Assembly (NCBI GenBank): GCA_948467545.1
Contig: CAOKER010000003.1
Coordinates: 103,500 to 167,499 of the forward strand
Direction: 5' to 3'
DNA: 64,000 bases
Source: an uncultured Eubacteriales bacterium
GTDB taxonomy: Bacteria; Bacillota; Clostridia; Oscillospirales; CAG-272
The position numbers and the translations under genes were made by a program. A model generated the notes under the pieces. The model saw nothing but the letters and a program-made list of their open reading frames with translations, made no database searches and had not been told where the DNA came from. Positions 21,516-64,000 of the stretch are shown here, piece by piece (the stretch's first letter is position 1; every line of letters begins with the position of its first letter).

Positions 21516-21662
21516 ACGGTAAAGCATACGAGATAATTGAAAAAAGTGTATTTACAGAAAAGGATATATCGTGAAAATAAGTAAATCCGCAAATCACCGG
21601 ACACTTTTTCACGCTCGTTTGTGTCTGTCTGCACAAATGCAAAGAAAGGTATGTTAATTAAC

Positions 21663-23198
21663 ATGAACGAAAATACAGCAAATTCATCGGAAAGAAAAAA
21701 TTCAGCAGCTCAGGGTAATGTACAGGAACAGGATATAGGTCAGCTTCTGAAAGTACGGCGAGAAAAGCTTGCGGCTTTGCAGCAGGATGGAAAGGATCCT
21801 TTTAAGATTACAAAGTATGATGTTACAAACCACAGCGCAGAAATAAAGTCCGATTTTGAAGCTTTTGATTCTAAAGCAGTTTCCGTTGCCGGAAGAATGA
21901 TGTCAAAGCGTGTTATGGGCAAAGCTTCTTTTTGTAATGTTCAGGACAGTCAGGGTACAATTCAGGCATATGTCGCACGTGATAATGTTGGAGAGGAGCC
22001 GTACGGAGATTTTAAAAAATATGATATCGGCGATATAATTGGAATTAAAGGAACGGTATTTAAAACTAAGACGGGAGAGATTTCAATTCATGTAACCGAA
22101 ATCACACTTCTCTCAAAAAGTCTTCAGATACTTCCGGAAAAATTTCACGGTCTTACGAATACGGACCTCCGTTACCGTCAGCGCTATACCGACCTTATTA
22201 TGAATTCGGATGTAAGGGACACATTTGTTAAGCGTTCAAGAATAATCGGGGCTATCAGAAAATACCTAACATCTCAGAATTTTCTTGAGGTAGAAACTCC
22301 TATGCTTGTAAACAATGCAGGAGGTGCATCGGCAAGACCGTTTGAAACACATTTTAATGCGCTTGACGAGGACATGAAGCTTCGTATTTCTCTTGAGCTT
22401 TATCTTAAGAGACTTATTGTAGGCGGTTTGGAACGTGTATATGAAATAGGACGTGTTTTTCGCAATGAAGGGTTGGATACCCGTCATAATCCGGAATTTA
22501 CGCTTATGGAGCTTTATCAGGCTTATACCGATTATCACGGAATGATGGATTTGACTGAAAATATGTACCGTTATGTTGCCAATGAAGTTCTTGGAACGAC
22601 CAAAATTACCTATAACGGAATTGAAATGGATCTCGGAAAGCCATTTGAACGTATTACAATGCTGGACGCTGTAAAAAAATATTCGGGAGTTGACTTTAAT
22701 GAAGTACATACTCTTGATGAGGCAAGAGAGCTTGCAAAAAAACATCACATTGAATTTGAAATGCGCCATACAAAGGGCGATATTTTAAATTTATTTTTTG
22801 AAGAGTTTGTTGAAGAGCATCTTGTTCAGCCTACCTTTGTAATGGATCATCCTGTTGAAATTTCACCTCTTACTAAGAAAAAACCGGATAACCCGGATTA
22901 CGTCGAAAGATTTGAATTTTTCATGAACGGATGGGAAATGGCGAATGCGTACTCTGAGCTCAATGATCCTATCGATCAGCGCGAACGTTTTGCTGCTCAG
23001 GAAAAACGTTTTGAGCAGGGAGATGCGGAGGCTAATCATACCGATGAAGATTTTCTTAATGCTCTTGAAATCGGTATGCCTCCTACAGGTGGAATCGGTT
23101 TTGGAATTGACAGAATGTGTATGCTTTTTACAGATTCCGCTGCTATACGGGACGTTTTGCTTTTCCCGACGATGAAGTCCCTGCCGAGTGAAAAATAA
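21663..23198 (+). CDS. lysS: Lysyl-tRNA synthetase (class II)
   Basis: OB-fold N-domain; motif 2 [25 protein letters not shown]; motif 3 [17 protein letters not shown] 21663 (MNENTANS) preferred over the upstream ORF start. Confidence 0.95.
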
Positions 23199-44654: not shown

Positions 44655-44690
44655 AATGAGTGAGGGGAGAAATCCTCTCACTCATTTTTT
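44655..44690 (+). terminator. Intrinsic terminator
   Basis: 10-bp stem AATGAGTGAG/CTCACTCATT followed by TTTTTT. Confidence 0.75.
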
Positions 44691-44704
44691 CGGGAGGAAG
44701 GACA

Positions 44705-45862: not shown

Positions 45863-45954
45863 TTATGACATTTTTGTAAATTTCAGATATGCTGTTGCAT
45901 TTTACGATGAATTAGGCTATAATAATTACAGCAGATTTGAAAGGAGCGAATGTT

Positions 45955-46209
45955 ATGCCAAATATAAAGCCTGTGTCTGATTTGAGAAACTATACGGAGG
46001 TATTGCGTGATATTGCGGTTGGAGAGCCCGTATTCCTGACAAAAAACGGCAGGGGCAGATATGCCATTGTCGATATGGAGGAATATGAAAAAACAAAGGC
46101 TGTGATTAAGCTGATGGGCGAGCTTTCCAAAGGAGAACAGTCTGCAAAGGAAAAAGGCTGGACGGATATTGCCGATGTTGAGAAAATGTTAGGTATTGCC
46201 AATGGCTGA
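45955..46209 (+). CDS. Phd/YefM-family type II antitoxin
   Basis: MPNIKPVSDLRNYTEVLRDIAVGEPVFLTKNGRGRYAIVDMEEYE; 8-nt overlap with the toxin gene. Confidence 0.8.
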   Translation: MPNIKPVSDLRNYTEVLRDIAVGEPVFLTKNGRGRYAIVDMEEYEKTKAVIKLMGELSKGEQSAKEKGWTDIADVEKMLGIANG

Positions 46210-46525
46210 GATAAAATTTTCACCGGAAGCAATTACAGACTTACAGCAGACGAAAGCATATATTACGGAGGAATTTTGCAATGAGCAGGCGGCGGTGGGT
46301 ACGGTTGCAAAGATTACAAAGAGAATCCGGCAGCTTTCTGACTTTCCTGAAAGCGGCGCTCCGCTTTCCTCTATCGTAGACTTTGAAACGGATTACCGAT
46401 TTTTGGTCTGCGGCAACTATACGGCGTTCTACCGAATCGAAAATCAGACAGTAAATATTATTCGTGTGCTTTACGGACGGAGGAACTTTATGCAAATCCT
46501 GTTCGGAGAGCCAAGTGACAACTAA
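46202..46525 (+). CDS. RelE/ParE-family type II toxin
   Basis: About 107 aa; DYRFLVCGNYTAFYRIENQTVNIIRVLYGRRN C-terminal signature. Confidence 0.8.
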   Translation: MAEIKFSPEAITDLQQTKAYITEEFCNEQAAVGTVAKITKRIRQLSDFPESGAPLSSIVDFETDYRFLVCGNYTAFYRIENQTVNIIRVLYGRRNFMQILFGEPSDN

Positions 46526-53511: not shown

Positions 53512-53787
53512 ATGAAGCAATGTATGGATTCAGACAACCTGCACCGCAGGCTGAAAAAGATTATAGGACAGGTACAGGCGATTGACCGTATGGTAGATGA
53601 AGATGTTCCCTGTGAAGATATTCTTGCACAGATAAATGCTGCAAAGTCGGCTTTACACGGATGTGGTAAAGTGGTTTTAGAGGGACATATTAAGCACTGT
53701 GTTCGTGACGGAATCGAACACGGTGACGCAGATAAAACGATTGAAAGCTTTACCAAAGCGGTTGAGCGTTTCTCAAATATGACTTAA
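53512..53787 (+). CDS. csoR: CsoR/RcnR-family metal-sensing repressor
   Basis: LHRRLKKIIGQVQAIDRMV; Cys-His-Cys ligand pattern (PCEDIL, LHGCG). Confidence 0.9.
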   Translation: MKQCMDSDNLHRRLKKIIGQVQAIDRMVDEDVPCEDILAQINAAKSALHGCGKVVLEGHIKHCVRDGIEHGDADKTIESFTKAVERFSNMT

Positions 53788-53850
53788 TTTTTTTCATATA
53801 AATCCGTTAAAAAAAGGCTGTAGCAAAATAGCCTCTCAGAAAAAATGCAC

Positions 53851-53886
53851 AAAAACTCTTGAAAAATAGGCTTTTCAAGAGTTTTT
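53851..53886. terminator. Bidirectional intrinsic terminator after csoR
   Basis: Perfect 15-bp stem AAAAACTCTTGAAAA/TTTTCAAGAGTTTTT. Confidence 0.75.
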
Positions 53887-53897
53887 CTTTGTTTTAT

Positions 53898-53955
53898 GGG
53901 GATGTAGTAAATTGCTGTTTGTAAACAATTTCGCTGCATCCCCTTAATTTTTTTT
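53898..53955 (+). terminator. Second long hairpin terminator
   Basis: GGGGATG...CATCCCC outer stem with inner AAATTG/CAATTT, followed by TTAATTTTTTTT. Confidence 0.6.
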
Positions 53956-53964
53956 GAAAACCTC

Positions 53965-54018
53965 TTGACAACCCATACCCCTATGTGTATAATAATATAC
54001 GGATACCCCTTATGGTAT
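53965..54018 (+). promoter_or_regulatory. Consensus promoter of the P-type ATPase-feo operon carrying two CsoR-type boxes
   Basis: TTGACA (53965-53970), 17-nt spacer, TATAAT (53988-53993). ATACCCCTATGTGTAT (53975-53990) overlaps the spacer and -10; ATACCCCTTATGGTAT (54003-54018) lies just downstream. Confidence 0.7.
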
Positions 54019-54037
54019 ATGCGAAAGGAGGAGTTCT

Positions 54038-55924
54038 GTGAAAAAGCTAATGGGAAAGTTAGAGCAACTTCTGGAGTTTGGAGGTACAAAGAAAGACATC
54101 ACTTTGCTCGTCATTTCCGGCATTGCCTTAATCATCAGCTTATTTGATTTATTGCCTTTGCCGTTTAATGCTGCATGGGTAGCAATTATTCTATGCGGTG
54201 TTCCGATTATATTGGAGGCAATCATCGGTCTTGTGACGGCTTTTGACATCAAAGCCGCTGTGCTTGTTTCTCTTGCTTTGATTGCTTCCATATGGATCGG
54301 TGAAGATTTTGCCGCAGGAGAAGTTGCTTTTATTATGCAGCTTGGCGCATTGCTTGAAGATCTTACCGTTGCAAAGGCTCGTGCGGGCATTGAAAAGCTG
54401 GTGCATCTGACGCCGCAGACAGCAAGAGTAATAAACGGAGGAACAGAAAAAACAGTTGCTGCGGAACAGGTGAAAATAAACGATTTGCTTCGGGTGCTTC
54501 CCGGCGAAACCGTTCCAGTAGACGGAGTGATTACATCGGGACAGACTTCCGTTAATCAAGCCGTTATGACGGGCGAATCGCTCCCTGTTGACAAAACAGT
54601 AGGAGATGAAGTGTCAAGCGGTACGGTCAACCAATTCGGCGCTTTTGAGATGAAAGCAACAAAAGTAGGAGAGGACAGTTCCATTCAAAGAATGATCCGT
54701 CTTGTCAGGTCGGCAGACGCCGGCAAAGCAAAAATTGTCAGCATTGCCGACCGCTTTGCAACCTGGATTGTGGTCATTGCTCTGACTGCCGCAGCCTTAA
54801 CTTGGGCGTTTAGCGGGCAGATTATCCGTGCGGTTACGATTCTTGTTGTATTCTGTCCTTGTGCTTTGGTACTTGCGACGCCTACGGCGATTATGGCGGC
54901 AATCGGCAACGCTACCAAACACGGCTTTCTCGTCCGTGAGGGAGACGCTTTGGAACGGCTGGCGAAGGTATCGAAAATCACTTTTGATAAGACGGGGACG
55001 CTCACTTACGGCACACCGAAGGTAATCAAAACGCAAAGTGTATTGCCGAGCGTTTCGCAAGAAGAACTTTATGCTCTCTGTGCTTCTGCTGAACAATTAT
55101 CTGAACATCCGCTCGGCAAAGCAATTACCCGGTGCTATAAGCAGGAAACCGGAAGGAATATTTTACCCGCAGAAGGATTTAAAATGATTCCGGGACGAGG
55201 CGTTTCGGCTGTTGTAGATGAAAAGGCGGTTCTTGCAGGAAATCGTGAAATGCTTGCAGAGCAGAATATTGAAATATCGGGGGAAGTATCCTTACAGGCA
55301 GAAAAATATCTTATGCAGGGCTGCACGGTGATTTATGTCACAATCAATCAGGCGCTTGCGGGATATATCGTTCTCTCAGATACAGTGCGTGAGGAAAGCG
55401 CCGCAATGATAGACAATCTGACAAATCTGAATGTACAGCCTGTTTTGCTTACCGGAGATCACGAGAATGCAGCTACAGCAATCGCAAAACAATTACATAT
55501 CAAAGAAGTACACGCAGGCTGTCTGCCGGAGGATAAGCTGAACTGGATTTCTTCTTATCAGGAAAAGAAAGAAGCGGTTTGTATGATCGGCGATGGAATC
55601 AATGACGCACCGGCGCTGAAGGCGGCGAATGTGGGAATTGCTATGGGCGGAGTAGGCAGTGATATTGCGGTAGACGCAGCGGATATTGCCCTTGTTGATG
55701 ACGAGGTAAAGGAACTTCCTCACCTGATTGCCCTCTCCAAACGGATGATGACAACGATTAAGCTAAACCTGACTTTTTCAATGACGCTCAATTTTCTTGC
55801 CATTGCCCTTGCCATCACAGGAATATTAAATCCGGTTATCGGTGCTTTGGTGCATAATGCGGGATCTGTTGTTGTTATTATCAATTCTGCACTATTGTTA
55901 AAATGGAAAAGAAGAAAAGAATGA
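54038..55924 (+). CDS. Heavy-metal-translocating P1B-type ATPase without N-terminal metal-binding domain; metal specificity undetermined
   Basis: GTG start after AAAGGAGGAG; TGES, CPC (VFCPCALVLATP), DKTGTLT, TGDHENA, GDGINDAP. The last TM reads VHNAGSVVVIINS, which fits no subgroup cleanly. Confidence 0.88.
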   Translation: MKKLMGKLEQLLEFGGTKKDITLLVISGIALIISLFDLLPLPFNAAWVAIILCGVPIILEAIIGLVTAFDIKAAVLVSLALIASIWIGEDFAAGEVAFIMQLGALLEDLTVAKARAGIEKLVHLTPQTARVINGGTEKTVAAEQVKINDLLRVLPGETVPVDGVITSGQTSVNQAVMTGESLPVDKTVGDEVSSGTVNQFGAFEMKATKVGEDSSIQRMIRLVRSADAGKAKIVSIADRFATWIVVIALTAAALTWAFSGQIIRAVTILVVFCPCALVLATPTAIMAAIGNATKHGFLVREGDALERLAKVSKITFDKTGTLTYGTPKVIKTQSVLPSVSQEELYALCASAEQLSEHPLGKAITRCYKQETGRNILPAEGFKMIPGRGVSAVVDEKAVLAGNREMLAEQNIEISGEVSLQAEKYLMQGCTVIYVTINQALAGYIVLSDTVREESAAMIDNLTNLNVQPVLLTGDHENAATAIAKQLHIKEVHAGCLPEDKLNWISSYQEKKEAVCMIGDGINDAPALKAANVGIAMGGVGSDIAVDAADIALVDDEVKELPHLIALSKRMMTTIKLNLTFSMTLNFLAIALAITGILNPVIGALVHNAGSVVVIINSALLLKWKRRKE

Positions 55925-55958
55925 TGTTTAGGTAAAAAGAGTTAGAAGGAGGATGAAT

Positions 55959-56171
55959 ATGCTTTCTCTATCTTGTGTTCCTGTTGATACAGTACAGATA
56001 ATTAAATGGTACGCTGCAAGAGATTGCGATAAAATATCGTTTGAAAATATTGGATTGCTTCAAGGGGCAACTGTGAAAGTAGTCGCTTCTTATTTTGGCA
56101 ATGTGATTATTTCCGTAGGCGATATAAGGCTTGCATTAGGAAAAGACATAGCTGATAGAATTAAGGTTTAA
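55959..56171 (+). CDS. feoA: FeoA-domain protein (copy 1)
   Basis: SH3-like FeoA pattern ...GLLQGATVKVVASYFGNVIISVGDIRLALGKDIADRIKV. ATG 55959 lies 6 nt after AGGAGG. Confidence 0.75.
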   Translation: MLSLSCVPVDTVQIIKWYAARDCDKISFENIGLLQGATVKVVASYFGNVIISVGDIRLALGKDIADRIKV

Positions 56172-56220
56172 AAGAAAGATTTGGTTCGGGCGCATAGTCC
56201 GAACTAAATTTAAGACAAGT

Positions 56221-56238
56221 GGTTAGCAACTTCTAACC
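56221..56238. promoter_or_regulatory. Palindrome GGTTAG-N6-CTAACC between feoA copies (candidate DtxR-family site or RNA hairpin)
   Basis: The half-sites equal those of the DtxR/IdeR consensus (TTAGGTTAGCCTAACCTAA) but with a 6-nt instead of a 1-nt centre. Confidence 0.3.
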
Positions 56239-56269
56239 TGATTGTAGGATAAGATAAGGGGGATTTATT

Positions 56270-56482
56270 ATGATTCCACTTTTGCTGGCTCCTATTGGTA
56301 CGGAGCAAACGGTAAAAATGATTAAAGGAAATGACAGGACAAAAGCATTTATTGAAAAATTAGGATTTGTTGCAGGATCAAAGGTGACGGTAATCTCTGA
56401 ACACGGAGGAGATTTAATTGTCTTTGCAAAAGATGTTAGGATTGCCCTGAATCGGGAAACAGCAGCAAGAATTATGGTATAA
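56270..56482 (+). CDS. feoA: FeoA-domain protein (copy 2)
   Basis: LGFVAGSKVTVISEHGGDLIVFAKDVRIALNRETAARIMV. Confidence 0.8.
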   Translation: MIPLLLAPIGTEQTVKMIKGNDRTKAFIEKLGFVAGSKVTVISEHGGDLIVFAKDVRIALNRETAARIMV

Positions 56483-56529
56483 AGCCGGATGGCTCTATAT
56501 AAATACAATCAAATGAATGGAGGATTCAG

Positions 56530-56751
56530 ATGAAAACATTACGAGATGTTCCTGTTGGAGCAACGGTAAAAGTAATCCGGCTTCACGGAGAAGGCGCTAC
56601 AAAGCGGCGGATTATGGATATGGGCGTAACAAAAGGTGTGGATATCTTTGTACGTAAGGTTGCGCCGCTTGGCGATCCTGTACAGGTAACTGTTCGGGGA
56701 TATGAGCTTTCTGTTCGTAAGGCGGATGCTCAGATGATAGAAGTTGATTAA
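56530..56751 (+). CDS. feoA: FeoA-domain protein (copy 3)
   Basis: VGATVKVIRLHGEGATKRRIMDMGVTKGVDIFVRKVAPLGDPVQVTVRGYELSVRKADAQMIEV. Confidence 0.85.
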   Translation: MKTLRDVPVGATVKVIRLHGEGATKRRIMDMGVTKGVDIFVRKVAPLGDPVQVTVRGYELSVRKADAQMIEVD

Positions 56752-56766
56752 AGGAGGAAAAATGTA

Positions 56767-58911
56767 ATGGACAAATATACGCTTGCATTAGCCGGAAATC
56801 CGAATAGCGGTAAAACTACAATGTTTAACGCACTGACCGGCGCCGCACAGTTCGTCGGCAACTGGCCGGGCGTAACTGTTGAAAAGAAGGAAGGCAAGTA
56901 TAAAAAGAACAAGGAAGTTCGGATTATGGACTTACCCGGTATTTATTCGCTGTCTCCATATTCTCAGGAGGAAGTGGTAGCTCGTGAGTATTTGGTAAAT
57001 GAGCGTCCGGACGCTATTATTAACATTGTGGACGCAACCAATTTGGAAAGAAATCTCTATCTGACTACGCAGCTTTTGGAAATCGGAATTCCGGTAGTCA
57101 TTGCCTTGAATATGATGGATGTCGTAAGAAAAAGCGGCGATACGATACATACCGATGTGCTTTCTAAAATTTTAAGGTGTCCTGTTGTGGAGACTTCCGC
57201 ATTGAAAGAGGATAACCTTGATAAGGTTGTGCAGGAAGCAATCTCTGCTGCAAAAAAAGGTGAGACTCCGGCGTGTGTTCCTTTTGATAAGCAGACGGAA
57301 GGCTGGATTGCAGAAATACAAGAGAATTTGCCTGCCGATGTTCCGGCAGCACAGAAGCGTTATCTTTCTATTAAGCTGTTTGAGAAAGATTCCAAAGTTC
57401 CATATGTCAATGAGGCAATTTCAAAAATTGTCGCAGAGGCGGAAAAGACTCTCGATGATGATACAGAAAGCCATATTACCGGCGTACGCTACGAGTATAT
57501 TACAGGGATTATCAACAAGGTTCGTAAAAAACAATCCGGCAAGGTGTCTATCTCCGATAGAATTGACCGTATTGTAACAAATCGTTGGTTAGGCTTGCCG
57601 ATCTTTGCTCTTGTAATGCTTGTTGTTTACTATATTTCCGTTACTACTGTAGGAAGTTGGGTTACGGATTGGACAAATGATGTGTTTGTCGGAGAGTGGG
57701 TACAGGCTCCGGTTGAAACTTGGCTTACAGGTATTGGCTGTGCTGATTGGCTGACAGGGTTGATATGTGAGGGCATTATCGGCGGTGTAGGCGCTATGCT
57801 TGGATTTATGCCTCAGATGTTTATTCTGTTCTTCTTCCTTGCGCTTTTAGAGGATTGCGGATATATGGCTCGTATCGCATTTGTTATGGATCGTGTGTTC
57901 CGCAAATTTGGAATGTCAGGAAAATCCTTTATTCCTATGCTGATTGGAACAGGCTGTGGTCTGCCGGGCATTATGGCTGCCCGCACCATTGAAAATGAAA
58001 AAGACAGGCGAATGACAATTATGACCGTAACCTTTATGCCCTGCGGCGCAAAACTGCCGATGATAGCCTGCATTGCGGGAGCGTTGTTTAACAACAGCGG
58101 GTTTGTGGCATTTTCAGCGTATATGCTTGGTATAGTCAGCGTTATTGTTACAGGTATTATGCTGAAAAAGACAAAGAAATTTGCAGGTGAAGCAACGCCT
58201 TTCGTTATGGAACTTCCTGCATATCATATTCCAACCGTAAAGAATGTTTGGCACAGTATATGGGATCGCTTGAAAGCATTTGCAAAAAAGGCTGTTACCG
58301 TTTATATGCTGGCAAGTATTCTTGTATGGTTCATCTCCAGCTTTGGTTGGGTAGACGGTTCCTTTGGAATGGTTGAAATCGGAGACAGCATTGCTTATTC
58401 TATCGGCAACGCATTGGCTTGGCTGTTCGCTCCTTGCGGCTTTGATAAGTGGCAGGCAGTTATCGCTTCTATTCTCGGCATTGCGGCAAAGGAAGAGGTA
58501 GTTGGTACGCTCGGTGTATTCTCAGCGATAGGAGACGCAGATATGGCATTGGAGTTGGCAGAGTCCGGCGGAAACCTTGCGCCTATTGCAGCTTTATTTG
58601 GAGGAAGCGCTGTTGCCGGTTATGCGTTCCTTGCTTTCAACCTGTTATGCGCTCCTTGTTTTGCCGCAATCAATACAATTCGTGCAGAAATGCAGAGTGG
58701 AAAGTGGTCGGCGTTTGCCATTGGCTATCAGTGCGGATTTGCCTATCTTGTTTCTTTGATGATTTATCAATTCGGTAATCTTATTTTGGGCGGAGGATTT
58801 ACAATCTGGACTGCCGTTGCATTTGTAGTGTTGGCATTTTTCCTGTTTATGTTATTCCGCCCCGGCTATAAATCCTCGGAAACAAAATTAAAAGCTGCCG
58901 CTAAAGCATAA
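56767..58911 (+). CDS. feoB: Ferrous iron transporter FeoB
   Basis: G-domain GNPNSGKTTMFNALTG and DLPGIYSL, followed by polytopic gate/permease domains; 714 aa. Confidence 0.95.
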   Translation: MDKYTLALAGNPNSGKTTMFNALTGAAQFVGNWPGVTVEKKEGKYKKNKEVRIMDLPGIYSLSPYSQEEVVAREYLVNERPDAIINIVDATNLERNLYLTTQLLEIGIPVVIALNMMDVVRKSGDTIHTDVLSKILRCPVVETSALKEDNLDKVVQEAISAAKKGETPACVPFDKQTEGWIAEIQENLPADVPAAQKRYLSIKLFEKDSKVPYVNEAISKIVAEAEKTLDDDTESHITGVRYEYITGIINKVRKKQSGKVSISDRIDRIVTNRWLGLPIFALVMLVVYYISVTTVGSWVTDWTNDVFVGEWVQAPVETWLTGIGCADWLTGLICEGIIGGVGAMLGFMPQMFILFFFLALLEDCGYMARIAFVMDRVFRKFGMSGKSFIPMLIGTGCGLPGIMAARTIENEKDRRMTIMTVTFMPCGAKLPMIACIAGALFNNSGFVAFSAYMLGIVSVIVTGIMLKKTKKFAGEATPFVMELPAYHIPTVKNVWHSIWDRLKAFAKKAVTVYMLASILVWFISSFGWVDGSFGMVEIGDSIAYSIGNALAWLFAPCGFDKWQAVIASILGIAAKEEVVGTLGVFSAIGDADMALELAESGGNLAPIAALFGGSAVAGYAFLAFNLLCAPCFAAINTIRAEMQSGKWSAFAIGYQCGFAYLVSLMIYQFGNLILGGGFTIWTAVAFVVLAFFLFMLFRPGYKSSETKLKAAAKA

Positions 58912-58923
58912 AGAGGTATAGTT

Positions 58924-59103
58924 ATGTTGGGATGGATAACACAGAATCTTGCAACTATAATAATTGGAACTTTACTTCTCATTGCTGTCATTTTCGCTTT
59001 GTTAAGTATGGTGAAAACGAAAAAAGCAGGCGGCTGTAATTGTGGGTGTTCCGGGTGCAAAGGCTGTTCTCATTCCGGCACCTGTCATCATAGGGAATAT
59101 TGA
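58924..59103 (+). CDS. FeoB-associated Cys-rich membrane peptide (59 aa)
   Basis: ATG 58924 to TGA 59101-59103; one TM helix then GGCNCGCSGCKGCSHSGTCHH. Below the ORF-track length cutoff. Confidence 0.7.
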   Translation: MLGWITQNLATIIIGTLLLIAVIFALLSMVKTKKAGGCNCGCSGCKGCSHSGTCHHREY

Positions 59104-59211
59104 GTAAATCGCTGAAAATTCCTATATTACAGCTTGAGGCTATAAACAGCAGGCAGCCGAAACCATAAATTGGTTTGACTGCCTGTTTGCTTATTTTAGA
59201 AAGGAGCTAAT

Positions 59212-59622
59212 ATGACCGCCAAAAAAAGCACAAGTAACTTGTATTCTTCCGGTGAAGATTATCTGGAAGCAATTCAGATACTAATTGTAAAAAACGGTAA
59301 AACCCGTTCGTCTGAGGTGGCAGAATATATGGGCGTTACAAGACCGAGTGTATGTCGGGCAGTGCGTGTTCTTACCGAGGGCGGCTATTTGGTTATGGAC
59401 GAGGATTTTGGTCTGTTTTTAACGAAAAAAGGACAGGAAATTGCGGATAAAACTTATGAGAAGCATTGCTTTTTCAAACAGATGTTGATAGATGCCGGCA
59501 TAGATTCAATAAAGGCGGAACAGGAAGCCTGCGAGATGGAGCATAGTATTAGCGAGGATAGCTTTGAGAAGCTGCGTCAGGCAAAAATAGAATTGATGGG
59601 AAATCGACAAGGAGGTGCTTGA
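59212..59622 (+). CDS. DtxR/MntR-family metal-dependent transcriptional regulator
   Basis: SGEDYLEAIQIL...SSEVAEYMGVTRPSVCRAVRVLTEGGYL winged HTH; metal-site residues in EKHCFF...EACEMEHSIS. Confidence 0.85.
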   Translation: MTAKKSTSNLYSSGEDYLEAIQILIVKNGKTRSSEVAEYMGVTRPSVCRAVRVLTEGGYLVMDEDFGLFLTKKGQEIADKTYEKHCFFKQMLIDAGIDSIKAEQEACEMEHSISEDSFEKLRQAKIELMGNRQGGA

Positions 59623-59763
59623 TGAAAGGTTATAAAAGCGTTGGTCTGCCAAAGCAGCCTTCATTGATAATTCGTGATAAAAGAAAAACCAAGACTTGGA
59701 ATAATAAAAAATCACAGTTACCTACCGTCCGGAAGGAAATGGTAAGTAGGAAAGGGTTACGAA

Positions 59764-60012
59764 ATGATAAAAACGGTACTTATGATTGAGGGAATGTCTT
59801 GCGGAATGTGTGAAGCACATATAAATGAGACGATCCGTAGAAATTTCAAAGTAAAAAAGGTGAATTCATCTCATAAGAAAAATTTGACTGAGGTTGTTAG
59901 TGAAGAACCGTTAGATACACAGAGTTTGAAAGATGTGATTGGAGCGACAGGATATACTCTTGTATCAGTCTCGGAAAAAACATATACAAAAAAGAATATA
60001 TTTGGAAAATAA
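59764..60012 (+). CDS. Heavy-metal-associated (HMA, CopZ-like) domain protein
   Basis: MIEGMSCGMCEAHI MxCxxC motif in a ferredoxin-like fold length. Confidence 0.8.
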   Translation: MIKTVLMIEGMSCGMCEAHINETIRRNFKVKKVNSSHKKNLTEVVSEEPLDTQSLKDVIGATGYTLVSVSEKTYTKKNIFGK

Positions 60013-60038
60013 AACCCATTTGGATTTTATGTTGAACG

Positions 60039-60488
60039 GTGGGAGGCGATAGTATCGGAAGAATAATAATTATTGAGCTTTCAGATCAGGATTCCTCTGT
60101 CTTTGATGATATTTTGTCTTTTCTTAATCAGCACTCTGATTGGCAGCAGTATGATTTAAGTAAAGAACCGATATTATCGTTTCCCGGTCTTGAAATCAAT
60201 TTTGCCCGCCACAGGATTTATTGCAATCATCAAGAGGTTGAATTAACAACGAAGGAGTTTAATATCCTCTGTCTTTTGGCAGTAAACAAAGGTCGGGTGC
60301 TTACCCATTCACAGATTTATGAAAAGGCGTGGGATAATGAAGCGATTGGCAATGAGCGAAAGGCGGTGGGCTATCATATTTGGAATATCCGTAAGAAGCT
60401 CTACGCCGCAGCACCGGAACACAAATTTGCCATAGAGAGCGTTCGTGAGGTCGGATACCGATTTGAGGTCAACAATATGGATACATAA
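60039..60488 (+). CDS. OmpR/PhoB-type winged-helix DNA-binding protein lacking a receiver domain
   Basis: C-terminal ELTTKEFNILCLLAVNKGRVLTHSQIYEKAW...VGYRFEV. The N-terminal 50 aa are too short for a receiver. GTG start uncertain. Confidence 0.65.
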   Translation: MGGDSIGRIIIIELSDQDSSVFDDILSFLNQHSDWQQYDLSKEPILSFPGLEINFARHRIYCNHQEVELTTKEFNILCLLAVNKGRVLTHSQIYEKAWDNEAIGNERKAVGYHIWNIRKKLYAAAPEHKFAIESVREVGYRFEVNNMDT

Positions 60489-60518
60489 CGGCAGTCTGAA
60501 AAACAGGCTGCCGTTTTT
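60489..60518 (+). terminator. Intrinsic terminator ending the metal module
   Basis: 10-bp stem CGGCAGTCTG/CAGGCTGCCG (one G-U), AAAAA loop, TTTTT tail. Confidence 0.8.
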
Positions 60519-61160
60519 ATGCTCATTTGAGCTTCTTTTTGCAAACCTGATAATATCTTATTTTATATGACATTTCGATGCCGCATAATGTCTGAACTTG
60601 CGGCGAGACTTGACTAAAACAGATACAAAACAGTAAGAGTTCCAAAATTTATACATTATACTTCCCCTATCAACAAATGTACAGGGGAAAACTGAAACAG
60701 TCTGTCATCTTATCCCCTTTAAAGGGGACAAGATGGCAGATACAAGGACAGGGACAGGCGGAATACCGCCGACAGGAAACCAAAAATATTATTTCGTACA
60801 TACCGCAGTCTCTAAGGGGATTGCGGTGTTTTTTTATTCGACACCGTTCCTTTTATTCCTTTTACAATTCCTATTATGTTGCAGCAGTTTACAGCAAAGC
60901 GCACTCGTCTTGCGGCGGGTGCGCTTTTTGTCTGTCAGAAAAAGAAAATTCCTGCTGTGTAATAGCCTATTTTGTAACAGACAAGAAACGGCAGGGCGCT
61001 TTTATCGCATAAAACCGGACAAGCCTTTTTTCTTTGCTTATAAGAGTAAGCCTTTGCTTTTGAGCAGATGGCAGACCTTTATCGGGAGGTATCCGTAATC
61101 TCCGAATTTTTGATTTCAACCTTTTATATCAAAAATTCAAAATTTAAGGAGATTACGGAA

Positions 61161-61694
61161 ATGACGGAAAGCAATTTAGAAGTTCTGAAAGAGGAATTTC
61201 AAAACGAGTGCAAGGTTATCAATTTGCAGTATGAATATCAGGGATATAGCGGTAAAGAACAATGGGCGATTATTTCGGAACTGTCCGAAAAAGAAATCTT
61301 TGAAAAGTACAAGCTCTTTGTTCAGGATTACATACCGTTTCTTATATTACCGCCGATGTACGGAGAAGTGCGGCAGCAGTTTCGCAGAAACGAGAATAAA
61401 CACTATATGAGAATGGTCAGAGGTCATATTTATTCGCTGGAGGACGATTTGGAAGAACATCATCCGGAAGCTGCCGTAGAGGATTGTGCAGCGCAGGTCT
61501 TTGCAAAGGAACAAAGCAGAGAGCTTTGGGAAGCGATAAACTCTCTCAATGAAATACAAAGAAAACGGCTGATTGCCTATTACTTTGAGGGGAAAACCTA
61601 TCGGGAGATTGCTGATGAAGAAGGCGTCGATCATAAGGCGGTAGTCCGCAGCGTTGCCATTGCTTTGAAAAATCTGAGGATTTTCTTAGAATAG
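61161..61694 (+). CDS. Tn916 Orf7-like sigma-70 region-4 protein
   Basis: AAGGAG 9 nt before ATG 61161; LNEIQRKRLIAYYFEGKTYREIADEEGVDHKAVVRSVAIALKNLR. Confidence 0.75.
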   Translation: MTESNLEVLKEEFQNECKVINLQYEYQGYSGKEQWAIISELSEKEIFEKYKLFVQDYIPFLILPPMYGEVRQQFRRNENKHYMRMVRGHIYSLEDDLEEHHPEAAVEDCAAQVFAKEQSRELWEAINSLNEIQRKRLIAYYFEGKTYREIADEEGVDHKAVVRSVAIALKNLRIFLE

Positions 61695-61750
61695 AGTCCC
61701 CAAACGCCCTTTCCCTGTGGGAACAAGTGAAAGGACTTGTTTCTACTCCG
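61693..61750 (+). promoter_or_regulatory. Copy B of the conserved bipartite element, starting at the sigma gene stop codon and 46 nt upstream of the MazF-like gene
   Basis: 40/42 identical to 23856-23897, plus the shared CTACTCCG box. Alternative hairpins CCTTTC/GAAAGG and GAACAAGT/ACTTGTT. Confidence 0.6.
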
Positions 61751-61795
61751 GATATGGAACGCCTTTCAAATACTTATATTGAGAGGTTTATATAA

Positions 61796-62347
61796 ATGGA
61801 ACTCAAAGAAAATCAGAAGGTGAAGCGTGGGGAAATCTATCTGCACGACTTCGGAAGCAATGAAGGCTCGATACAGAATGGGATAAGACCTGTTCTTGTA
61901 GTGCAATGCGATGAAGGCAATCAGGCAAGCACAACCACCATTGTTGCGGCTCTTACATCTGTTATTAAAAAGCGCTATCTGCCCTCACATATTGTTTTGG
62001 GCGATAAATACGGACTGAAAGAGCCGTCAATGGTTATGCTTGAACAACTAAAAACGGTTAATCAGTCAGAGCTTGCCGAATATATCGGTTTTGTTGACAG
62101 CGAATATCTGCTCAGAAAAATCAATATCGGTTTGAAAAAGGCGCTTGGCTTGTGGGTGGATAAACCGCAGAAGCACAAGGGCGATATACGCTGCTTATGC
62201 AGCAAATGCTTGGAGGATTACAAAGCCAATCCCGATTATATCGTAAGGCGGCTTGATCCGTTTGCGAAAGAAAAGCGCAGATGTGATAAGTGTCTGAATA
62301 TGGGGTACGATTACCTGATTTACGATAAGAGTATTTCAAAGAGGTAA
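61796..62347 (+). CDS. PemK/MazF-like endoribonuclease domain fused to a C-terminal Cys-rich zinc-ribbon-like domain
   Basis: KRGEIYLHDFGSNEGSIQNGIRPVLVVQ and MVMLEQLKTVN MazF blocks (about 115 aa), then CLCSKC...CDKC (about 65 aa). Confidence 0.75.
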   Translation: MELKENQKVKRGEIYLHDFGSNEGSIQNGIRPVLVVQCDEGNQASTTTIVAALTSVIKKRYLPSHIVLGDKYGLKEPSMVMLEQLKTVNQSELAEYIGFVDSEYLLRKINIGLKKALGLWVDKPQKHKGDIRCLCSKCLEDYKANPDYIVRRLDPFAKEKRRCDKCLNMGYDYLIYDKSISKR

Positions 62348-62352
62348 CGCCT

Positions 62353-62574
62353 ATGGCAGATACAAATACAACTACAAAGCCGTATGTACCCGTTTGGGAA
62401 AAATACGCTCTTACAATTTATGAAGCGGCAGAGTATTTCGGGATTGGGGAACATCGTCTGCGGACATTGGTAAGAGAGAACCGTCAGGCTGATTTTGTGC
62501 TGTGGATTGGAGTGAAGGTGGAAATCAAACGGAAGCTGTTTGAGGAATTTCTGAATGAAATAAATGCACTCTGA
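62353..62574 (+). CDS. xis: Tn916 Xis-like excisionase (HTH) paralog 1
   Basis: PVWEKYALTIYEAAEYFGIGEHRLRTLV...EIKRKLFEEFL parallels Tn916 Xis [28 protein letters not shown]. Confidence 0.8.
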   Translation: MADTNTTTKPYVPVWEKYALTIYEAAEYFGIGEHRLRTLVRENRQADFVLWIGVKVEIKRKLFEEFLNEINAL

Positions 62575-62680: not shown

Positions 62681-63049
62681 ATGAAAAATTATGTATATGT
62701 TCCCGGTCTCAGCGAGGTCGTGGAGAACGAAAAGAAAAAAGAGCCGAGCAATACGGAAACTGATAAATTCGTTACGGTAACGGGTGCGGCTAAAAAAACT
62801 GTTGCCACACACGACAGAGGTGTTGTAAGAAATAAAAAGGTTGACGACCGCAGCTTTCAGATTCCGGTATGGGAGAAATACGCCCTGACAATCAAGGAAG
62901 CGGCAGAGTATTACAATGTAGCCGAAACCAAACTGCGGGAATTTGCAATGAGCAACCGTACCAAACCGTTCGTATTAAAAGCCGGAGGCAGGCTGTTGTT
63001 AAAACGCAAGGTCTTTGAAGCGTTCTTAGACCAAAATAATGTTATTTGA
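62681..63049 (+). CDS. Xis-like excisionase paralog 2 with about 70-aa N-terminal extension
   Basis: AAAGGAGG before ATG 62681; IPVWEKYALTIKEAAEYYNVAETKLREF...LLKRKVFEAFL. Confidence 0.75.
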   Translation: MKNYVYVPGLSEVVENEKKKEPSNTETDKFVTVTGAAKKTVATHDRGVVRNKKVDDRSFQIPVWEKYALTIKEAAEYYNVAETKLREFAMSNRTKPFVLKAGGRLLLKRKVFEAFLDQNNVI

Positions 63050-63062
63050 AAGGAGGGCGGCA

Positions 63063-63326
63063 ATGAACAGAAAAGGAAATCCGATGTTTCAGAAGGGTTA
63101 TCCAAATGCTGAAATGTGTAACAAAAGGCTGAGGGAACTGCCGATATGGGAAAAGCCGCTGCTGACGGTAGTTGAAGCGGCAAAGTATTTTCAAATCGGA
63201 GAGTCCAATATCAGGAGGCTTACAAGAGAGCATAAGGGCGAGGACTTTATACAATGGAAGGACAACCGTGTGTTTATCAGACGGGAGGAATTTGAGAAGT
63301 TCTTAGATCAGACAAACGCAATTTAA
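63063..63326 (+). CDS. Xis-like excisionase paralog 3
   Basis: AAAGGAGGG before ATG 63063; LPIWEKPLLTVVEAAKYFQIGESNIRRL...FIRREEFEKFL. Confidence 0.75.
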   Translation: MNRKGNPMFQKGYPNAEMCNKRLRELPIWEKPLLTVVEAAKYFQIGESNIRRLTREHKGEDFIQWKDNRVFIRREEFEKFLDQTNAI

Positions 63327-63339
63327 GGAGGTATCGACT

Positions 63340-64000
63340 ATGGCAGAAAAAAGGCGTGATTCCAAAGGCAGAGTTCTATGGTCAGGCGAATCGCAGCGAC
63401 CGGACGGGAAATATGAATTTAAGTATGCCGATAACAATGGAGAACGGCATTCGGTATATAGCTGGAAGCTCGTTGCAACCGACCGTGTGCCGGAGGGCAA
63501 GCAGATAACGGAGTCGCTTCGGGAAATGGAAAAGCAGATCAAAAAGGACTTGGAGGATAATCTTCTTGTATATGAAACAAGAAAGATGACGCTCAATTCC
63601 TTTTGGGACGAATACATTGCTTTGAAGCACGAACTGAAGGAATCTACAAGAAGCAATTACATCTATATGTATGATAAGTATGTCAGACCGGAAATCGGGC
63701 AGAAAAATATCACAATCATTAAATACAGCGATGTCAAGAAGTTCTACATATCGCTGATTTATGAAAAGGGCTTCAAGCCGAACAGTATGGAAATCGTCAA
63801 TACGATTTTGCACCCTGTATTCACTTCGGCGGTTCGTGACGGATATATCCGGCTGAATCCTTCCGATGGCGTGATGGCGGAGATTAAAAAGAGCCACGCT
63901 TGGGAAAAGCCGAAACGCCACGCACTTACAGAACGGCAGCAGGAATTATTCGTAAATTTTACGGCGCAGTCCCACCAATACAAGCATTGGCTTCCGCTGA
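63340..64000 (+). CDS. int: Tn916-Int-like tyrosine recombinase (3' end beyond window)
   Basis: AAGGAGG before ATG 63340. MAEKRRDSKGRVLWSGESQRPDGKYEFKY...YSWKLVATDRVPEGK closely parallels the Tn916 Int N-terminal arm-binding domain. Absent from the ORF track because it runs off the edge. Confidence 0.85.
   Translation, partial: MAEKRRDSKGRVLWSGESQRPDGKYEFKYADNNGERHSVYSWKLVATDRVPEGKQITESLREMEKQIKKDLEDNLLVYETRKMTLNSFWDEYIALKHELKESTRSNYIYMYDKYVRPEIGQKNITIIKYSDVKKFYISLIYEKGFKPNSMEIVNTILHPVFTSAVRDGYIRLNPSDGVMAEIKKSHAWEKPKRHALTERQQELFVNFTAQSHQYKHWLPL

What the first reader, a model, noticed from the sequence alone, without database searches (positions are those of the whole stretch)
61796..62347. 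Solo MazF/PemK-like domain fused to a Cys-rich zinc-ribbon tail, with no adjacent antitoxin, next to xis/int
The first ~115 aa carry MazF blocks (KRGEIYLHDFG...IRPVLVVQ...MLEQLKTVN). The last ~65 aa carry CxCxxC...CxxC (CLCSKC, CDKC).

No small antitoxin-sized ORF is present upstream, where the conserved 42-bp element sits. Downstream, the next gene starts 5 nt later and is an excisionase paralog. The C-terminal domain could be a cis-acting antitoxin or a nucleic-acid-targeting module. Alternatively, the downstream Xis-like HTH proteins could act as the antitoxin, which would couple ICE excision control to a toxin.
Basis: partly seen in the sequence, partly recalled or inferred. Interest (0 to 1): 0.55.

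Follow-up and report, generated by a model that had tools for sequence, protein, structure and literature searches.

The report
MazF RNase fused to ICE zinc-domain regulator
This gene fuses an apparently intact MazF RNA-cutting toxin domain to a small, undescribed zinc-binding domain that elsewhere is a stand-alone gene in the control region of conjugative elements, so it is a conserved antitoxin-less fusion, not a broken toxin-antitoxin pair.

Summary
ORF 61796..62347 (+, 183 aa) has three parts:
- an EndoA/MazF-type endoribonuclease domain (Pfam PemK E 5e-23; TM ~0.9 to solved MazF; catalytic Arg31/Thr54 kept);
- a conserved Trp-containing linker;
- a basic ~45-residue Cys4 zinc-binding domain (ZnR) with no Pfam, PDB or PADLOC match.

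It is not a degraded mazEF locus. The order sigma-like gene, MazF-ZnR, recombination genes recurs in 61 genome loci of gut Clostridia. All three segments are under purifying selection (dN/dS 0.07-0.10). No MazE-like family is conserved within ±5 kb.

The new result is that the ZnR also exists as a stand-alone 57-80 aa protein. It sits in the same slot, after a sigma-like gene and before Xis/Int or serine recombinases, in elements that lack MazF.

The fused gene also occurs with serine recombinases and no Xis, so Xis paralogs cannot be a general antitoxin.

Best reading, with the mechanism inferred: a MazF RNase was grafted onto the small partner of an ICE sigma-like/ZnR regulatory pair. It is expressed with the excision genes and controlled through that partnership. 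A cis-antitoxin role is not excluded.

Verdict: new variant of a known kind, moderate interest.

The parts
61161..61694 (+). Sigma-like protein (177 aa from ATG 61161; the mechanical ORF begins at 61068). It is acidic (pI 5.1, net -10) and is the constant upstream partner of MazF-ZnR.
   Evidence: Pfam Sigma70_r4_2 E 1.2e-8 and Sigma70_r4 E 7.8e-6. NCBIfam sigma70-ECF scores 42.7 bits against a cut-off of 42.9. A 177-aa gene is called in L001. The protein is present upstream of MazF-ZnR in 54 of 61 genome loci. It is homologous (E 3e-17) to the gene that precedes a stand-alone ZnR in L015.
61717..61752 (+). Conserved core of the sigma-like/MazF-ZnR spacer (consensus about TTCCAAAnnAGTGAAGGGGTTATTTCnnnTCCGGA). 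It is a candidate promoter or operator of the MazF-ZnR/xis/int operon.
   Evidence: An alignment of 16 diverse loci has invariant columns at T61718, TGA 61728-61730 and GG 61733-61734. Forty distinct spacers were listed. There is no Rfam match. The function is inferred.
61796..62347 (+). MazF-ZnR fusion gene (183 aa), with a GAGAGG ribosome-binding site 8-9 nt upstream.
   Evidence: ORF. There are 990 homologous 90%-identity clusters, nearly all 178-192 aa. The AF2 model has a mean pLDDT of 90.5. dN/dS is 0.07-0.10 in all three segments.
61823..62143 (+). MazF/EndoA-type endoribonuclease domain (residues 10-116), with catalytic Arg31 and Thr54.
   Evidence: Pfam PF02452 E 5.1e-23. PDB chains 4hke, 7bxy and 4mdx match at E ~1e-22. 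Foldseek gives TM 0.88-0.91 and rmsd 1.7-1.9 A to S. aureus and B. subtilis MazF. Arg31 is kept in 58/59 and Thr54 in 59/59 distinct genes.
62144..62188 (+). Conserved linker (residues 117-131, LGLWVDKPQKHKGDI) with a near-invariant Trp120.
   Evidence: Trp120 is kept in 58/59 genes and dN/dS is 0.080. Predicted confidence is low (mean pLDDT 63 for residues 121-130). The stand-alone ZnR proteins lack this segment.
62189..62326 (+). ZnR: a basic Cys4 (C135, C138, C163, C166, plus C133) zinc-binding mini-domain (residues 132-177). Predicted elements in order: strand, helix, strand, short strand, strand.
   Evidence: C135, C163, C166 and G170 are invariant, and C133, L134, C138, R152 and Y173 are at least 90% conserved across fused and stand-alone forms. 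Position 138 is Cys or His in stand-alone forms. The tail-only AF2 model has pLDDT 82.5. No Pfam family matches, no PDB sequence relative matches and no significant fold match was found. Net charge is +6 and pI 9.2.
62353..62574 (+). Xis paralog 1 (73 aa).
   Evidence: Pfam Tn916-Xis PF09035 E 2.8e-24.
62681..63049 (+). Xis paralog 2 (122 aa from ATG 62681; the mechanical ORF begins at 62564).
   Evidence: Pfam Tn916-Xis E 5.3e-21. A 122-aa gene is called in L001.
63063..63326 (+). Xis paralog 3 (87 aa from ATG 63063; the mechanical ORF begins at 63039).
   Evidence: Pfam Tn916-Xis E 5.5e-13 and HTH_17 E 3.7e-8. An 87-aa gene is called in L001.
63340..64000 (+). Tn916-type tyrosine integrase, 5' part. 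It runs off the window; the full gene is 422 aa in L001.
   Evidence: Pfam Integrase_DNA PF02920 E 1.4e-29 and Phage_int_SAM_3. The full gene with Phage_integrase is seen in L001.

Best explanation
**Shown**
- The gene encodes an intact EndoA/MazF-type endoribonuclease domain joined by a conserved Trp-containing linker to a basic Cys4 zinc-binding mini-domain (ZnR).
- It belongs to a large family in conjugative elements (ICEs) of gut Clostridia.
- The order sigma-like gene, then MazF-ZnR, then recombination genes is fixed. No MazE-like gene accompanies it.
- The ZnR is an independent module. In related elements a 57-80 aa stand-alone ZnR gene sits in the same slot, usually straight after a homologous sigma-like gene and before Xis/Int or serine recombinases.
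- The protein is therefore a MazF RNase grafted onto the small second gene of an ICE sigma-like/ZnR pair. That second gene is the positional counterpart of Tn916 orf7/orf8.

**Inferred**
- The fusion is made together with the excision genes only when the element's regulatory cascade fires.
- The basic ZnR holds the RNase on its ancestral partner, which is the acidic sigma-like factor or nucleic acid. This partnership, together with tight transcriptional control, keeps the RNase in check; neither a MazE nor a Xis does so.
- When free, the RNase cuts host and/or element mRNAs. This either arrests the rare donor cell or tunes the excision operon.
For: - **MazF identity and likely catalytic competence:**. 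Arg31 is kept in 58/59 and Thr54 in 59/59 distinct genes.
- **Selection:** purifying on all three segments, with dN/dS of 0.096 (MazF), 0.080 (linker) and 0.074 (ZnR).
- **Synteny:** the gene order holds in 61 loci from many Clostridia species plus metagenome loci.
- **Conserved neighbours:** within ±5 kb the only conserved families are MazF-ZnR (60/61 loci), sigma-like (54), Int (53) and Xis (52).
- **Stand-alone ZnR in the same slot:**
  - sigma-like, ZnR, Xis, Int in L015, L079-81, L083-84 and L096-97;
  - sigma region-4 protein, ZnR, DUF6870, serine recombinases in L082;
  - ZnR, Xis, Int in L012-14.
- **Translational coupling:** the stand-alone ZnR start overlaps the end of the sigma-like gene in L079.
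- **Co-inheritance:** pairwise identity of MazF-ZnR tracks the sigma-like protein (Pearson 0.88) more closely than Int (0.58). Xis tracks Int (0.84). This indicates two sub-modules.
- **Complementary charge:** ZnR is +6 with pI 9.2, and the sigma-like protein is -10 with pI 5.1.
- **Possible Rosetta-stone fusion:** one sigma-like/ZnR fusion protein, P0233.
- **Precedents for ICE-induced arrest of activated cells:** Tn916 (PMC9632896) and ICEclc (PMC6812849), known to me from title and abstract only.
Against: - No direct evidence shows that the ZnR binds the sigma-like protein, DNA or RNA. Charge complementarity and synteny are circumstantial.
- L012-14 carry a stand-alone ZnR with no adjacent sigma-like gene.
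- The identity correlations are not independent samples and partly reflect physical linkage.
- P0233 could be a frameshift artefact, since many representatives in that search are chimeric.
- The B. subtilis MazF site UACAU is neither depleted nor enriched in the element or the operon, so the sequence gives no hint of a self-targeting or self-sparing design.
- Expression only upon induction is assumed by analogy with Tn916.
Confidence: 0.42

Rival explanations
1. The protein is an auto-inhibited single-chain toxin-antitoxin. The ZnR and/or the conserved Trp linker folds back on the MazF dimer and blocks the RNA groove until a trigger releases it. The trigger could be a phage or plasmid protein, zinc loss or proteolysis. 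This would resemble fused systems such as CapRel and would give abortive infection or element addiction.
For: - No separate antitoxin gene is conserved.
- The fusion is stable in hundreds of clusters.
- The linker is under strong constraint, with Trp120 kept in 58/59 genes, which is more than a passive tether would need.
- The variant MazF-MazF-ZnR (P0221) has one ZnR per pseudo-dimer. From my own knowledge, this matches one inhibitor per MazF dimer.
Against: - The ZnR occurs without any MazF in the same gene slot, so its primary role is not MazF neutralisation.
- It is basic (+6). From my own knowledge, MazE toxin-binding segments are acidic mimics of RNA.
- The monomer model gives pTM 0.66 and linker pLDDT 63, so there is no confident inter-domain packing.
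- There is no PADLOC match.
Confidence: 0.2
2. The protein is a site-specific processing RNase that works for the element and is not a growth-arresting toxin. The ZnR brings the MazF domain to the element's own polycistronic transcript or to the transcription complex. Cleavage then adjusts the ratio of regulator, Xis and Int. From my own knowledge, the Kid/PemK toxin tunes plasmid R1 replication in a similar way by cutting copB-repA mRNA.
For: - The gene sits inside the regulator/xis/int operon, with a 5-nt gap or overlapping stop and start codons.
- The ZnR is basic, which suits nucleic-acid binding.
- The catalytic residues are kept.
- The number of Xis paralogs varies from 1 to 5 downstream, which suggests dosage matters.
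Against: - No conserved cleavage-site pattern was found. The UACAU count is as expected.
- The MazF domain is close to broad-specificity mRNA interferases (35-41% identity).
- Nothing shows restricted targeting.
Confidence: 0.18
3. One of the downstream Xis-like HTH proteins is the antitoxin, in a reversed toxin-first TA arrangement. This would couple excision control to toxin release.
For: - The first Xis gene follows MazF-ZnR tightly, with a 5-nt gap or overlapping codons.
- In the first few loci examined, fused forms had 3-4 Xis genes and stand-alone ZnR forms had one.
Against: - The fused gene is also found followed by a large serine recombinase with no Xis. This applies to L021, L024, L025, L028-30, L089 and L092-93, with a TnpW-like protein read in L021 and L029.
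- It is also found with a single Xis in L022 and L034.
- All three window paralogs score as ordinary Tn916-Xis.
- MazF-ZnR co-varies less with Xis and Int than with the sigma-like gene.
Confidence: 0.05
4. This is an ordinary mazEF remnant. The antitoxin was lost or acts in trans from elsewhere in the element or host, and the tail is incidental.
For: - RefSeq annotates a homolog simply as a type II PemK/MazF family toxin.
- A trans-acting or RNA antitoxin cannot be excluded by sequence alone.
Against: - The same antitoxin-less architecture appears in 61 species-level genomes under purifying selection.
- No MazE-type family was found among 36 further ORFs of 40 to about 310 aa from the element region of the window. 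Only an unrelated Phd/YefM-ParE pair was found.
- The tail is as constrained as the MazF domain.
Confidence: 0.07

Closest known systems
B. subtilis EndoA (NdoA/MazF) with EndoAI (MazE), and S. aureus MazEF: type II toxin-antitoxin endoribonucleases
   Same: - The fold is the same (TM ~0.9, rmsd 1.7-1.9 A) with 35-41% identity.
- The catalytic Arg and Thr are kept.
- The GSxQxGxRPVLV and LEQ(L/I)(K/R)T substrate-loop motifs are kept.
   Different: - No upstream MazE gene is present here or in homologs.
- An extra conserved linker and Cys4 domain follow the MazF domain.
- The gene is embedded between a sigma-like regulator and the recombination genes of a conjugative element, rather than in a two-gene cassette.
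Tn916 regulatory pair orf7 (sigma-like) and orf8, upstream of xis-int
   Same: - The gene order is the same: a sigma70-region-4 protein, then a small gene, then xis and a Tn916-type int.
- Region 4 of the sigma-like protein aligns with Orf7 (E 5e-5).
   Different: - Orf8 is annotated as an HTH-domain protein and has no detectable similarity to the ZnR (hhalign probability 0.15%).
- Tn916 has no RNase domain and a single Xis.
Single-polypeptide (fused) toxin-antitoxins such as CapRel(SJ46) (toxSAS plus a C-terminal zinc-finger-like antitoxin domain) and EzeT; resemblance recalled from my own knowledge
   Same: - A toxin domain is followed by a small Cys-rich C-terminal domain in one chain.
- There is no separate antitoxin gene.
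   Different: - The toxin family differs.
- The C-terminal domain here also exists alone in the same locus slot without any toxin.
- No auto-inhibitory docking is predicted with confidence.
- There is no PADLOC match.
Small zinc-binding regulators of RNA polymerase or of mobile-element transcription (Fin/YabK anti-sigma factor; P2 Ogr / P4 Delta activators); recalled from my own knowledge as functional analogues
   Same: - The size is similar (about 60-80 aa).
- Each has two Cys pairs about 24 residues apart.
- Each is encoded by or beside transcription-factor genes.
- Seven of 22 tails give weak Fin matches (best E 0.0032).
   Different: - No significant homology was found. Fin hits are far below threshold, and Ogr_Delta is absent from the 24 families listed at E up to 10.
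- The function of the ZnR is untested.

Membership tests
MazF/PemK endoribonuclease toxin family (Pfam PF02452) | Sequence match to the family profile above the curated threshold | tested here: met
   81.8 bits against a cut-off of 23.1, E 5.1e-23, residues 10-115. PHROG 'MazF-like growth inhibitor' E 2.8e-26.
MazF/PemK endoribonuclease toxin family (Pfam PF02452) | MazF/CcdB-type SH3-like barrel fold | tested here: met
   The AF2 model (pLDDT 90.5) superposes on S. aureus and B. subtilis MazF with TM 0.88-0.91 and rmsd 1.7-1.9 A.
MazF/PemK endoribonuclease toxin family (Pfam PF02452) | Catalytic Arg and Thr/Ser (B. subtilis MazF R25/T48, residue numbering from my own knowledge) | tested here: met
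   Arg31 and Thr54 align to these positions. They are kept in 58/59 and 59/59 distinct genes.
MazF/PemK endoribonuclease toxin family (Pfam PF02452) | Sequence-specific, ribosome-independent RNA cleavage and growth inhibition | not testable with these tools
   This needs an in vitro RNase assay and a toxicity assay.
Type II mazEF toxin-antitoxin module | Adjacent co-transcribed cognate antitoxin gene (MazE of AbrB/SpoVT or RHH type) | tested here: not met
   No such ORF lies in the 101-nt upstream spacer or in the 5-nt downstream gap. No conserved extra family lies within ±5 kb in 61 loci. No MazE-type Pfam hit appears among 36 further ORFs of the element region.
Type II mazEF toxin-antitoxin module | Toxin neutralised by direct binding of a labile protein antitoxin that also auto-represses the operon | not testable with these tools
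   The sigma-like upstream protein is a candidate by position only.
Fused single-chain toxin-antitoxin (CapRel-like) | The C-terminal domain packs on and inhibits the toxin domain in cis | tested here: inconclusive
   The monomer model has pTM 0.66 and linker pLDDT 63, so there is no confident inter-domain geometry.
Fused single-chain toxin-antitoxin (CapRel-like) | The antitoxin domain is dedicated to, and co-occurs with, its toxin | tested here: not met
   Stand-alone ZnR genes without any MazF sit in the same locus slot.
Tn916-type orf7/orf8 regulatory module | Gene order: sigma-like gene, then a small gene, then xis, then a Tn916-type int | tested here: met
   Window genes compared with Tn925/Tn916 on pCF10.
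Tn916-type orf7/orf8 regulatory module | Homology of the second gene to Orf8 | tested here: not met
   hhalign of the ZnR profile against Orf8 gives probability 0.15%.
Classical zinc ribbon, or any described zinc-finger family | Match to a curated zinc-domain family or a solved zinc-domain fold | tested here: not met
Classical zinc ribbon, or any described zinc-finger family | Four conserved metal ligands | tested here: met
   C135, C163 and C166 are invariant, and position 138 is Cys or His, across fused and stand-alone forms. Metal binding itself is untested.
Tn916 excisionase family (PF09035), for the three downstream genes | Profile match above threshold | tested here: met
   E 2.8e-24, 5.3e-21 and 5.5e-13.
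Known anti-phage defence systems (PADLOC) | Match to any defence-system protein model | tested here: not met
   No hits for the full protein, the tail, the sigma-like protein or the stand-alone ZnRs at E up to 0.1.

The most novel reading that the evidence does not exclude
The sigma-like/ZnR pair is a previously undescribed two-protein regulator of ICE excision. In this clade it has been converted into a new kind of toxin-antitoxin. The MazF RNase is neutralised by the element's own transcription factor, which holds it through the fused ZnR, and no dedicated antitoxin is involved. Firing or loss of the ICE regulatory switch would then directly release an RNase. This would couple excision or transfer, or loss of the element, to growth arrest of the host cell.
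Probability: 0.22. Interest if true: 0.75.

Novelty: new variant of a known kind. Interest (0 to 1): 0.55.

Why it matters
MazF toxins are textbook two-gene modules. Here a catalytically intact MazF has no MazE in dozens of gut Clostridia species, and it is welded to a regulatory-module protein of conjugative elements.

If the inferred coupling is right, it gives a concrete and testable link between the decision of an ICE to excise and RNA-level arrest of the donor cell. It also shows a route by which toxins can be tamed without a dedicated antitoxin.

Independently of the mechanism, the work defines an undescribed small Cys4 domain family. The family is not in Pfam and has no solved or predicted structural neighbour. 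It is a recurrent component of recombination and regulation modules of Firmicutes ICEs, and these elements move cargo genes through the human gut microbiota.

Tried and rejected
1. **Self-sparing or self-targeting design.** I counted the B. subtilis MazF site UACAU. The observed count matches expectation in the element (29 against 28.3) and in the operon (5 against 3.9), so there is no signal.
2. **Small upstream peptide antitoxin.** A 22-codon GTG uORF (61727-61795) ends right at the MazF start. Its length and frame are not conserved in 40 distinct spacers, so the conservation is at the DNA/RNA level and not in a peptide.
3. **Hairpin in the spacer.** The stem AACAAGT/ACTTGTT in the window's spacer is not kept in other loci. 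Rfam finds nothing there.
4. **Pfam 'CapR homology domain' hit of the tail (E 0.01).** It is below threshold and matches only 4 of 22 tails. CapR is a phage-satellite DNA-binding repressor. I treated this as a chance Cys-pattern match. The same applies to the Fin, Transpos_assoc and zf-RRPl_C4 hits.
6. **Other N-terminal partners of the tail.** About 63 of the best 150 representatives carry unrelated N-termini. The seven of these I read (P0121, P0133, P0136, P0139, P0164, P0223, P0232) look chimeric or frameshifted, and five of them still carry the last MazF helix. I did not accept them as real architectures.
7. **Correlation of three or more Xis genes with the MazF fusion.** This was suggested by the first loci examined. 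It was rejected after the 61-locus survey found fused genes with one Xis or none.
8. **Homology of the ZnR to Tn916 Orf8 or to the element's Cys_rich_KTR protein.** None was found.
9. **Presence in phages.** Only two unannotated gut 'Bacteriophage sp.' fragments carry the full-length gene.
Full report
**1. Observation**

A GAGAGG ribosome-binding site lies 8-9 nt upstream and is conserved in homologous loci.

Residues 10-115 match Pfam PemK_toxin (E 5.1e-23, 81.8 bits against a cut-off of 23.1). The best solved relatives are the Bacillus EndoA/YdcE/MoxT and S. aureus MazF proteins (E ~1e-22).

An AlphaFold2 model built on a 41-sequence alignment has a mean pLDDT of 90.5. Its N-terminal domain superposes on solved MazF structures with TM 0.88-0.91 and rmsd 1.7-1.9 A. 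The residues aligned with the catalytic Arg and Thr of B. subtilis MazF (residue roles from my own knowledge) are Arg31 and Thr54.

The tail carries C133-L-C135-x-x-C138 and C163-D-K-C166. The next gene, a Tn916-type Xis, starts 5 nt after the stop codon. Two more Xis paralogs and a Tn916-type integrase follow. The upstream gene (61161..61694) is a sigma70-region-4 protein, and the 101-nt spacer holds no antitoxin-sized ORF.

**2. A conserved family, not a degraded locus**

The protein has 990 homologous 90%-identity clusters, almost all 178-192 aa, so the tail belongs to the family.

A scan of one genome per species with the tail profile found 61 loci. They lie in Lachnospiraceae, Oscillospiraceae/Ruminococcaceae, Erysipelotrichaceae, Anaerovoracaceae and other groups. 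The window itself matches an uncultured Ruminococcus sp. contig at 100% over the tail.

An HMM survey of these loci shows one gene order almost everywhere: sigma-like gene, MazF-ZnR, then recombination genes. A 45%-identical RefSeq homolog in a Monoglobus pectinilyticus assembly has the same order and is annotated only as a PemK/MazF family toxin.

I clustered every ORF within ±5 kb of the 61 loci. Only four families are conserved: MazF-ZnR (60 loci), sigma-like (54), Int (53) and Xis (52). No MazE-like family appears.

In the window's own element, 36 further ORFs of 40 to about 310 aa gave no MazE-type hit. They did include an unrelated Phd/YefM-ParE pair at 45937..46525.

Codon-level analysis of 59 distinct genes gives these dN/dS values:

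| Segment | dN/dS |
|---|---|
| MazF domain | 0.096 |
| Linker | 0.080 |
| Cys domain (ZnR) | 0.074 |

Conservation of key residues in the same 59 genes:

| Residue | Kept in |
|---|---|
| Arg31 | 58/59 |
| Thr54 | 59/59 |
| Trp120 | 58/59 |
| C135, C138, C163, C166 | 59/59 each |

Both halves are therefore functional, and the RNase is probably catalytically competent.

**3. What the tail is**

The tail matches no Pfam family. Only sub-threshold Cys-pattern hits appear. A PDB profile search gives a best E of 0.024. PADLOC and PHROGs give nothing for the tail.

A tail-only model (pLDDT 82.5) predicts a strand, a helix that starts at the first Cys pair, a strand, a short knuckle strand carrying the second Cys pair, and a long strand. 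Foldseek finds nothing significant in the PDB. In the viral library it finds only two uncharacterised small proteins (57 and 71 aa) from gut viral metagenome assemblies, at E 0.1-0.15.

I therefore call it a Cys4 zinc-binding mini-domain (ZnR) and not a classical zinc ribbon. It is basic, with net charge +6 and pI 9.2.

**4. The key result: the ZnR is an independent module of ICE regulatory regions**

A profile search of 1.84 billion cluster representatives with the tail alone found only 415 proteins. The real architectures among them are:
- MazF-ZnR;
- MazF-MazF-ZnR (P0221);
- MazF-ZnR-ZnR (P0227, seen in context in L089);
- stand-alone proteins of 57-80 aa with the full Cys motif.

Many other representatives are chimeric or frameshifted and were discarded.

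Genomic contexts of the stand-alone form place it in the same slot as the fused gene:

| Loci | Gene order |
|---|---|
| L015 | sigma-like (homologous to the window's, E 3e-17), ZnR, Xis-like HTH_17, Int |
| L079-81, L083-84, L096-97 | sigma-like, ZnR, Xis-like HTH_17, Int-like; ZnR start overlaps the sigma-like stop in L079 |
| L082 | sigma region-4 protein, ZnR, DUF6870, three serine recombinases |
| L011 | ZnR, serine recombinase, sigma region-4 protein |
| L012-14 | ZnR, Tn916-Xis, Int, with no adjacent sigma-like gene |

The ZnR is thus a recurrent small component of sigma-like/recombinase modules, and MazF-ZnR is an N-terminal MazF fusion to it. The arrangement parallels Tn916 orf7 (sigma-like), orf8, xis, int. 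However, Orf8 is unrelated to the ZnR.

**5.

*Xis as antitoxin.* The same fused gene is followed in L021 and L029 by a TnpW-like protein and a large serine recombinase, with no Xis. L024, L025, L028, L030 and L092-93 likewise gave no Xis or Int match after the fused gene, and in L089 it is followed by serine-recombinase matches. It also occurs with one Xis (L022, L034) and with up to five. A Xis paralog therefore cannot be a general antitoxin.

*Co-inheritance.* Pairwise identities show that MazF-ZnR co-varies with the sigma-like gene (Pearson 0.88) more than with Int (0.58). Xis co-varies with Int (0.84). This indicates two sub-modules that recombine with one another. The figure is descriptive only, because the pairs are not independent.

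*Cis-antitoxin.* This remains possible. The strongly constrained Trp linker is the best argument for it. It is weakened by the stand-alone ZnR genes, by the positive charge of the ZnR and by the absence of confident inter-domain packing (pTM 0.66; linker pLDDT 63).

**6. Most likely mechanism**

The anatomy and the distribution are shown. The following steps are inferred.
- The ZnR's ancestral job is to work with the sigma-like factor, or on nucleic acid, in controlling the recombination genes.
- The sigma-like protein is acidic (pI 5.1, net -10, with a -8 segment at residues 91-110). This complements the basic ZnR.
- I propose that the fusion places an active RNase under the control of this partnership and of the operon's transcriptional switch.
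- The RNase would then act only in cells where the element is activated. It would arrest the donor or process element or host mRNAs.

Activated Tn916 and ICEclc are reported to arrest or kill their host cells (PMC9632896, PMC6812849; title and abstract only), so such a role has precedent. I put 0.42 on this explanation. The rivals are cis-inhibition (0.20), a dedicated processing RNase (0.18), a trans or lost antitoxin (0.07) and a Xis antitoxin (0.05).

**7. Context of the window**

The element is a conjugative element of at least 40 kb. It carries:
- a SpaA/thioester adhesin;
- an SNF2-like helicase;
- a VirB4-like ATPase;
- a CHAP hydrolase;
- TnpV;
- a Cys_rich_KTR protein;
- extra sigma region-4 proteins;
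- metal and iron cargo, namely a P-type ATPase, FeoA/FeoB, a DtxR-like repressor candidate (136 aa at 59212..59622, read by eye and not scanned against any family) and a CsoR-like repressor.

A class II aminoacyl-tRNA synthetase gene (Pfam tRNA-synt_2, the Asp/Lys/Asn class) at 21621..23198 probably lies outside the element.

**8. Novelty and score**

The full-text searches I ran surfaced no paper describing this fusion or the ZnR family. Work on C. difficile CTn elements notes the sigma-like genes only (PMC3158075).

It is a new variant of a known kind: a MazF toxin with a new partner domain, no MazE and a fixed place in ICE regulatory modules. Interest is moderate at 0.55. A specialist would find the conserved antitoxin-less MazF and the new domain family notable, but the mechanism remains inferred.

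Noticed in passing
window 61717-61752: A ~35-nt core of the spacer between the sigma-like gene and MazF-ZnR is conserved across 16 diverse loci (consensus about TTCCAAAnnAGTGAAGGGGTTATTTCnnnTCCGGA). A related sequence precedes the stand-alone ZnR in L015. It may be the promoter or operator used by the sigma-like factor. There is no Rfam match.
   Followed up: partly
window 61727-61795: A GTG-start uORF of 22 codons (VKGLVSTPDMERLSNTYIERFI) has its TAA stop abutting the MazF-ZnR ATG. In one homolog (P0071) it is fused in frame to the protein. Its length and frame vary among loci, so it is probably not a conserved peptide.
   Followed up: partly
window 62324-62365 and 63311-63352; also 60733-60750: A 42-nt direct repeat (74% identity) covers the ribosome-binding site and start (GGAGGTA.CG.CTATGGCAGA) of Xis1 and of the integrase. 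An 18-nt copy of the ATGGCAGATACAA start also lies at 60733.
   Followed up: no
window 45937-46209 and 46196-46525: A classical overlapping Phd/YefM antitoxin and ParE toxin pair lies inside the same conjugative element. It is unrelated to the MazF gene.
   Followed up: partly
P0221, P0227 (context in L089:3472-4198) and P0233: Three variant architectures appeared in the tail search: tandem MazF-MazF-ZnR, MazF-ZnR-ZnR, and one sigma-like/ZnR direct fusion of 288 aa. The last could be a Rosetta-stone hint of interaction or a frameshift artefact.
   Followed up: partly
window 62389-62437, 62864-62912, 63141-63189: The three Xis paralogs share a 49-nt repeated core (84% and 65% identity to the first copy). 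Homologous elements carry from 1 to 5 Xis paralogs.
   Followed up: partly
window 44387-44623 and 44660-45178; 39027-39356; 41264-41458: The element carries further sigma70-region-4 proteins, a TnpV homolog and a Cys_rich_KTR protein (the family of Tn916 orf6). A third Sigma70_r4_2 match was not located.
   Followed up: no
window 53512-60488: The cargo block just upstream of the regulatory module is devoted to metals. It holds a CsoR-like repressor (53512..53787), a P-type ATPase (54038..55924), FeoB (56767..58911), a 136-aa DtxR-like repressor candidate (59212..59622), an 82-aa candidate heavy-metal-binding protein with a CxxC motif (59764..60012) and a winged-helix Trans_reg_C protein (60039..60488). 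Two FeoA-domain ORFs were detected but not located. The DtxR-like, heavy-metal-binding and FeoB labels are my reading of the translations and were not scanned against any family. Three terminator-like hairpins lie at 60487-60927.
   Followed up: no
L004-L009 (for example L004:2649-4768; L009:1175-4922): In several homologous elements an XRE-type repressor, one or two ImmA/IrrE-like metallopeptidases and a DNA polymerase IV gene lie just upstream of the sigma-like gene. This suggests a damage-inducible ImmR/ImmA-type switch feeding into the module.
   Followed up: no
window 12121-12192 and 12238-12311 (-): Two tRNA genes lie well outside the element.
   Followed up: no
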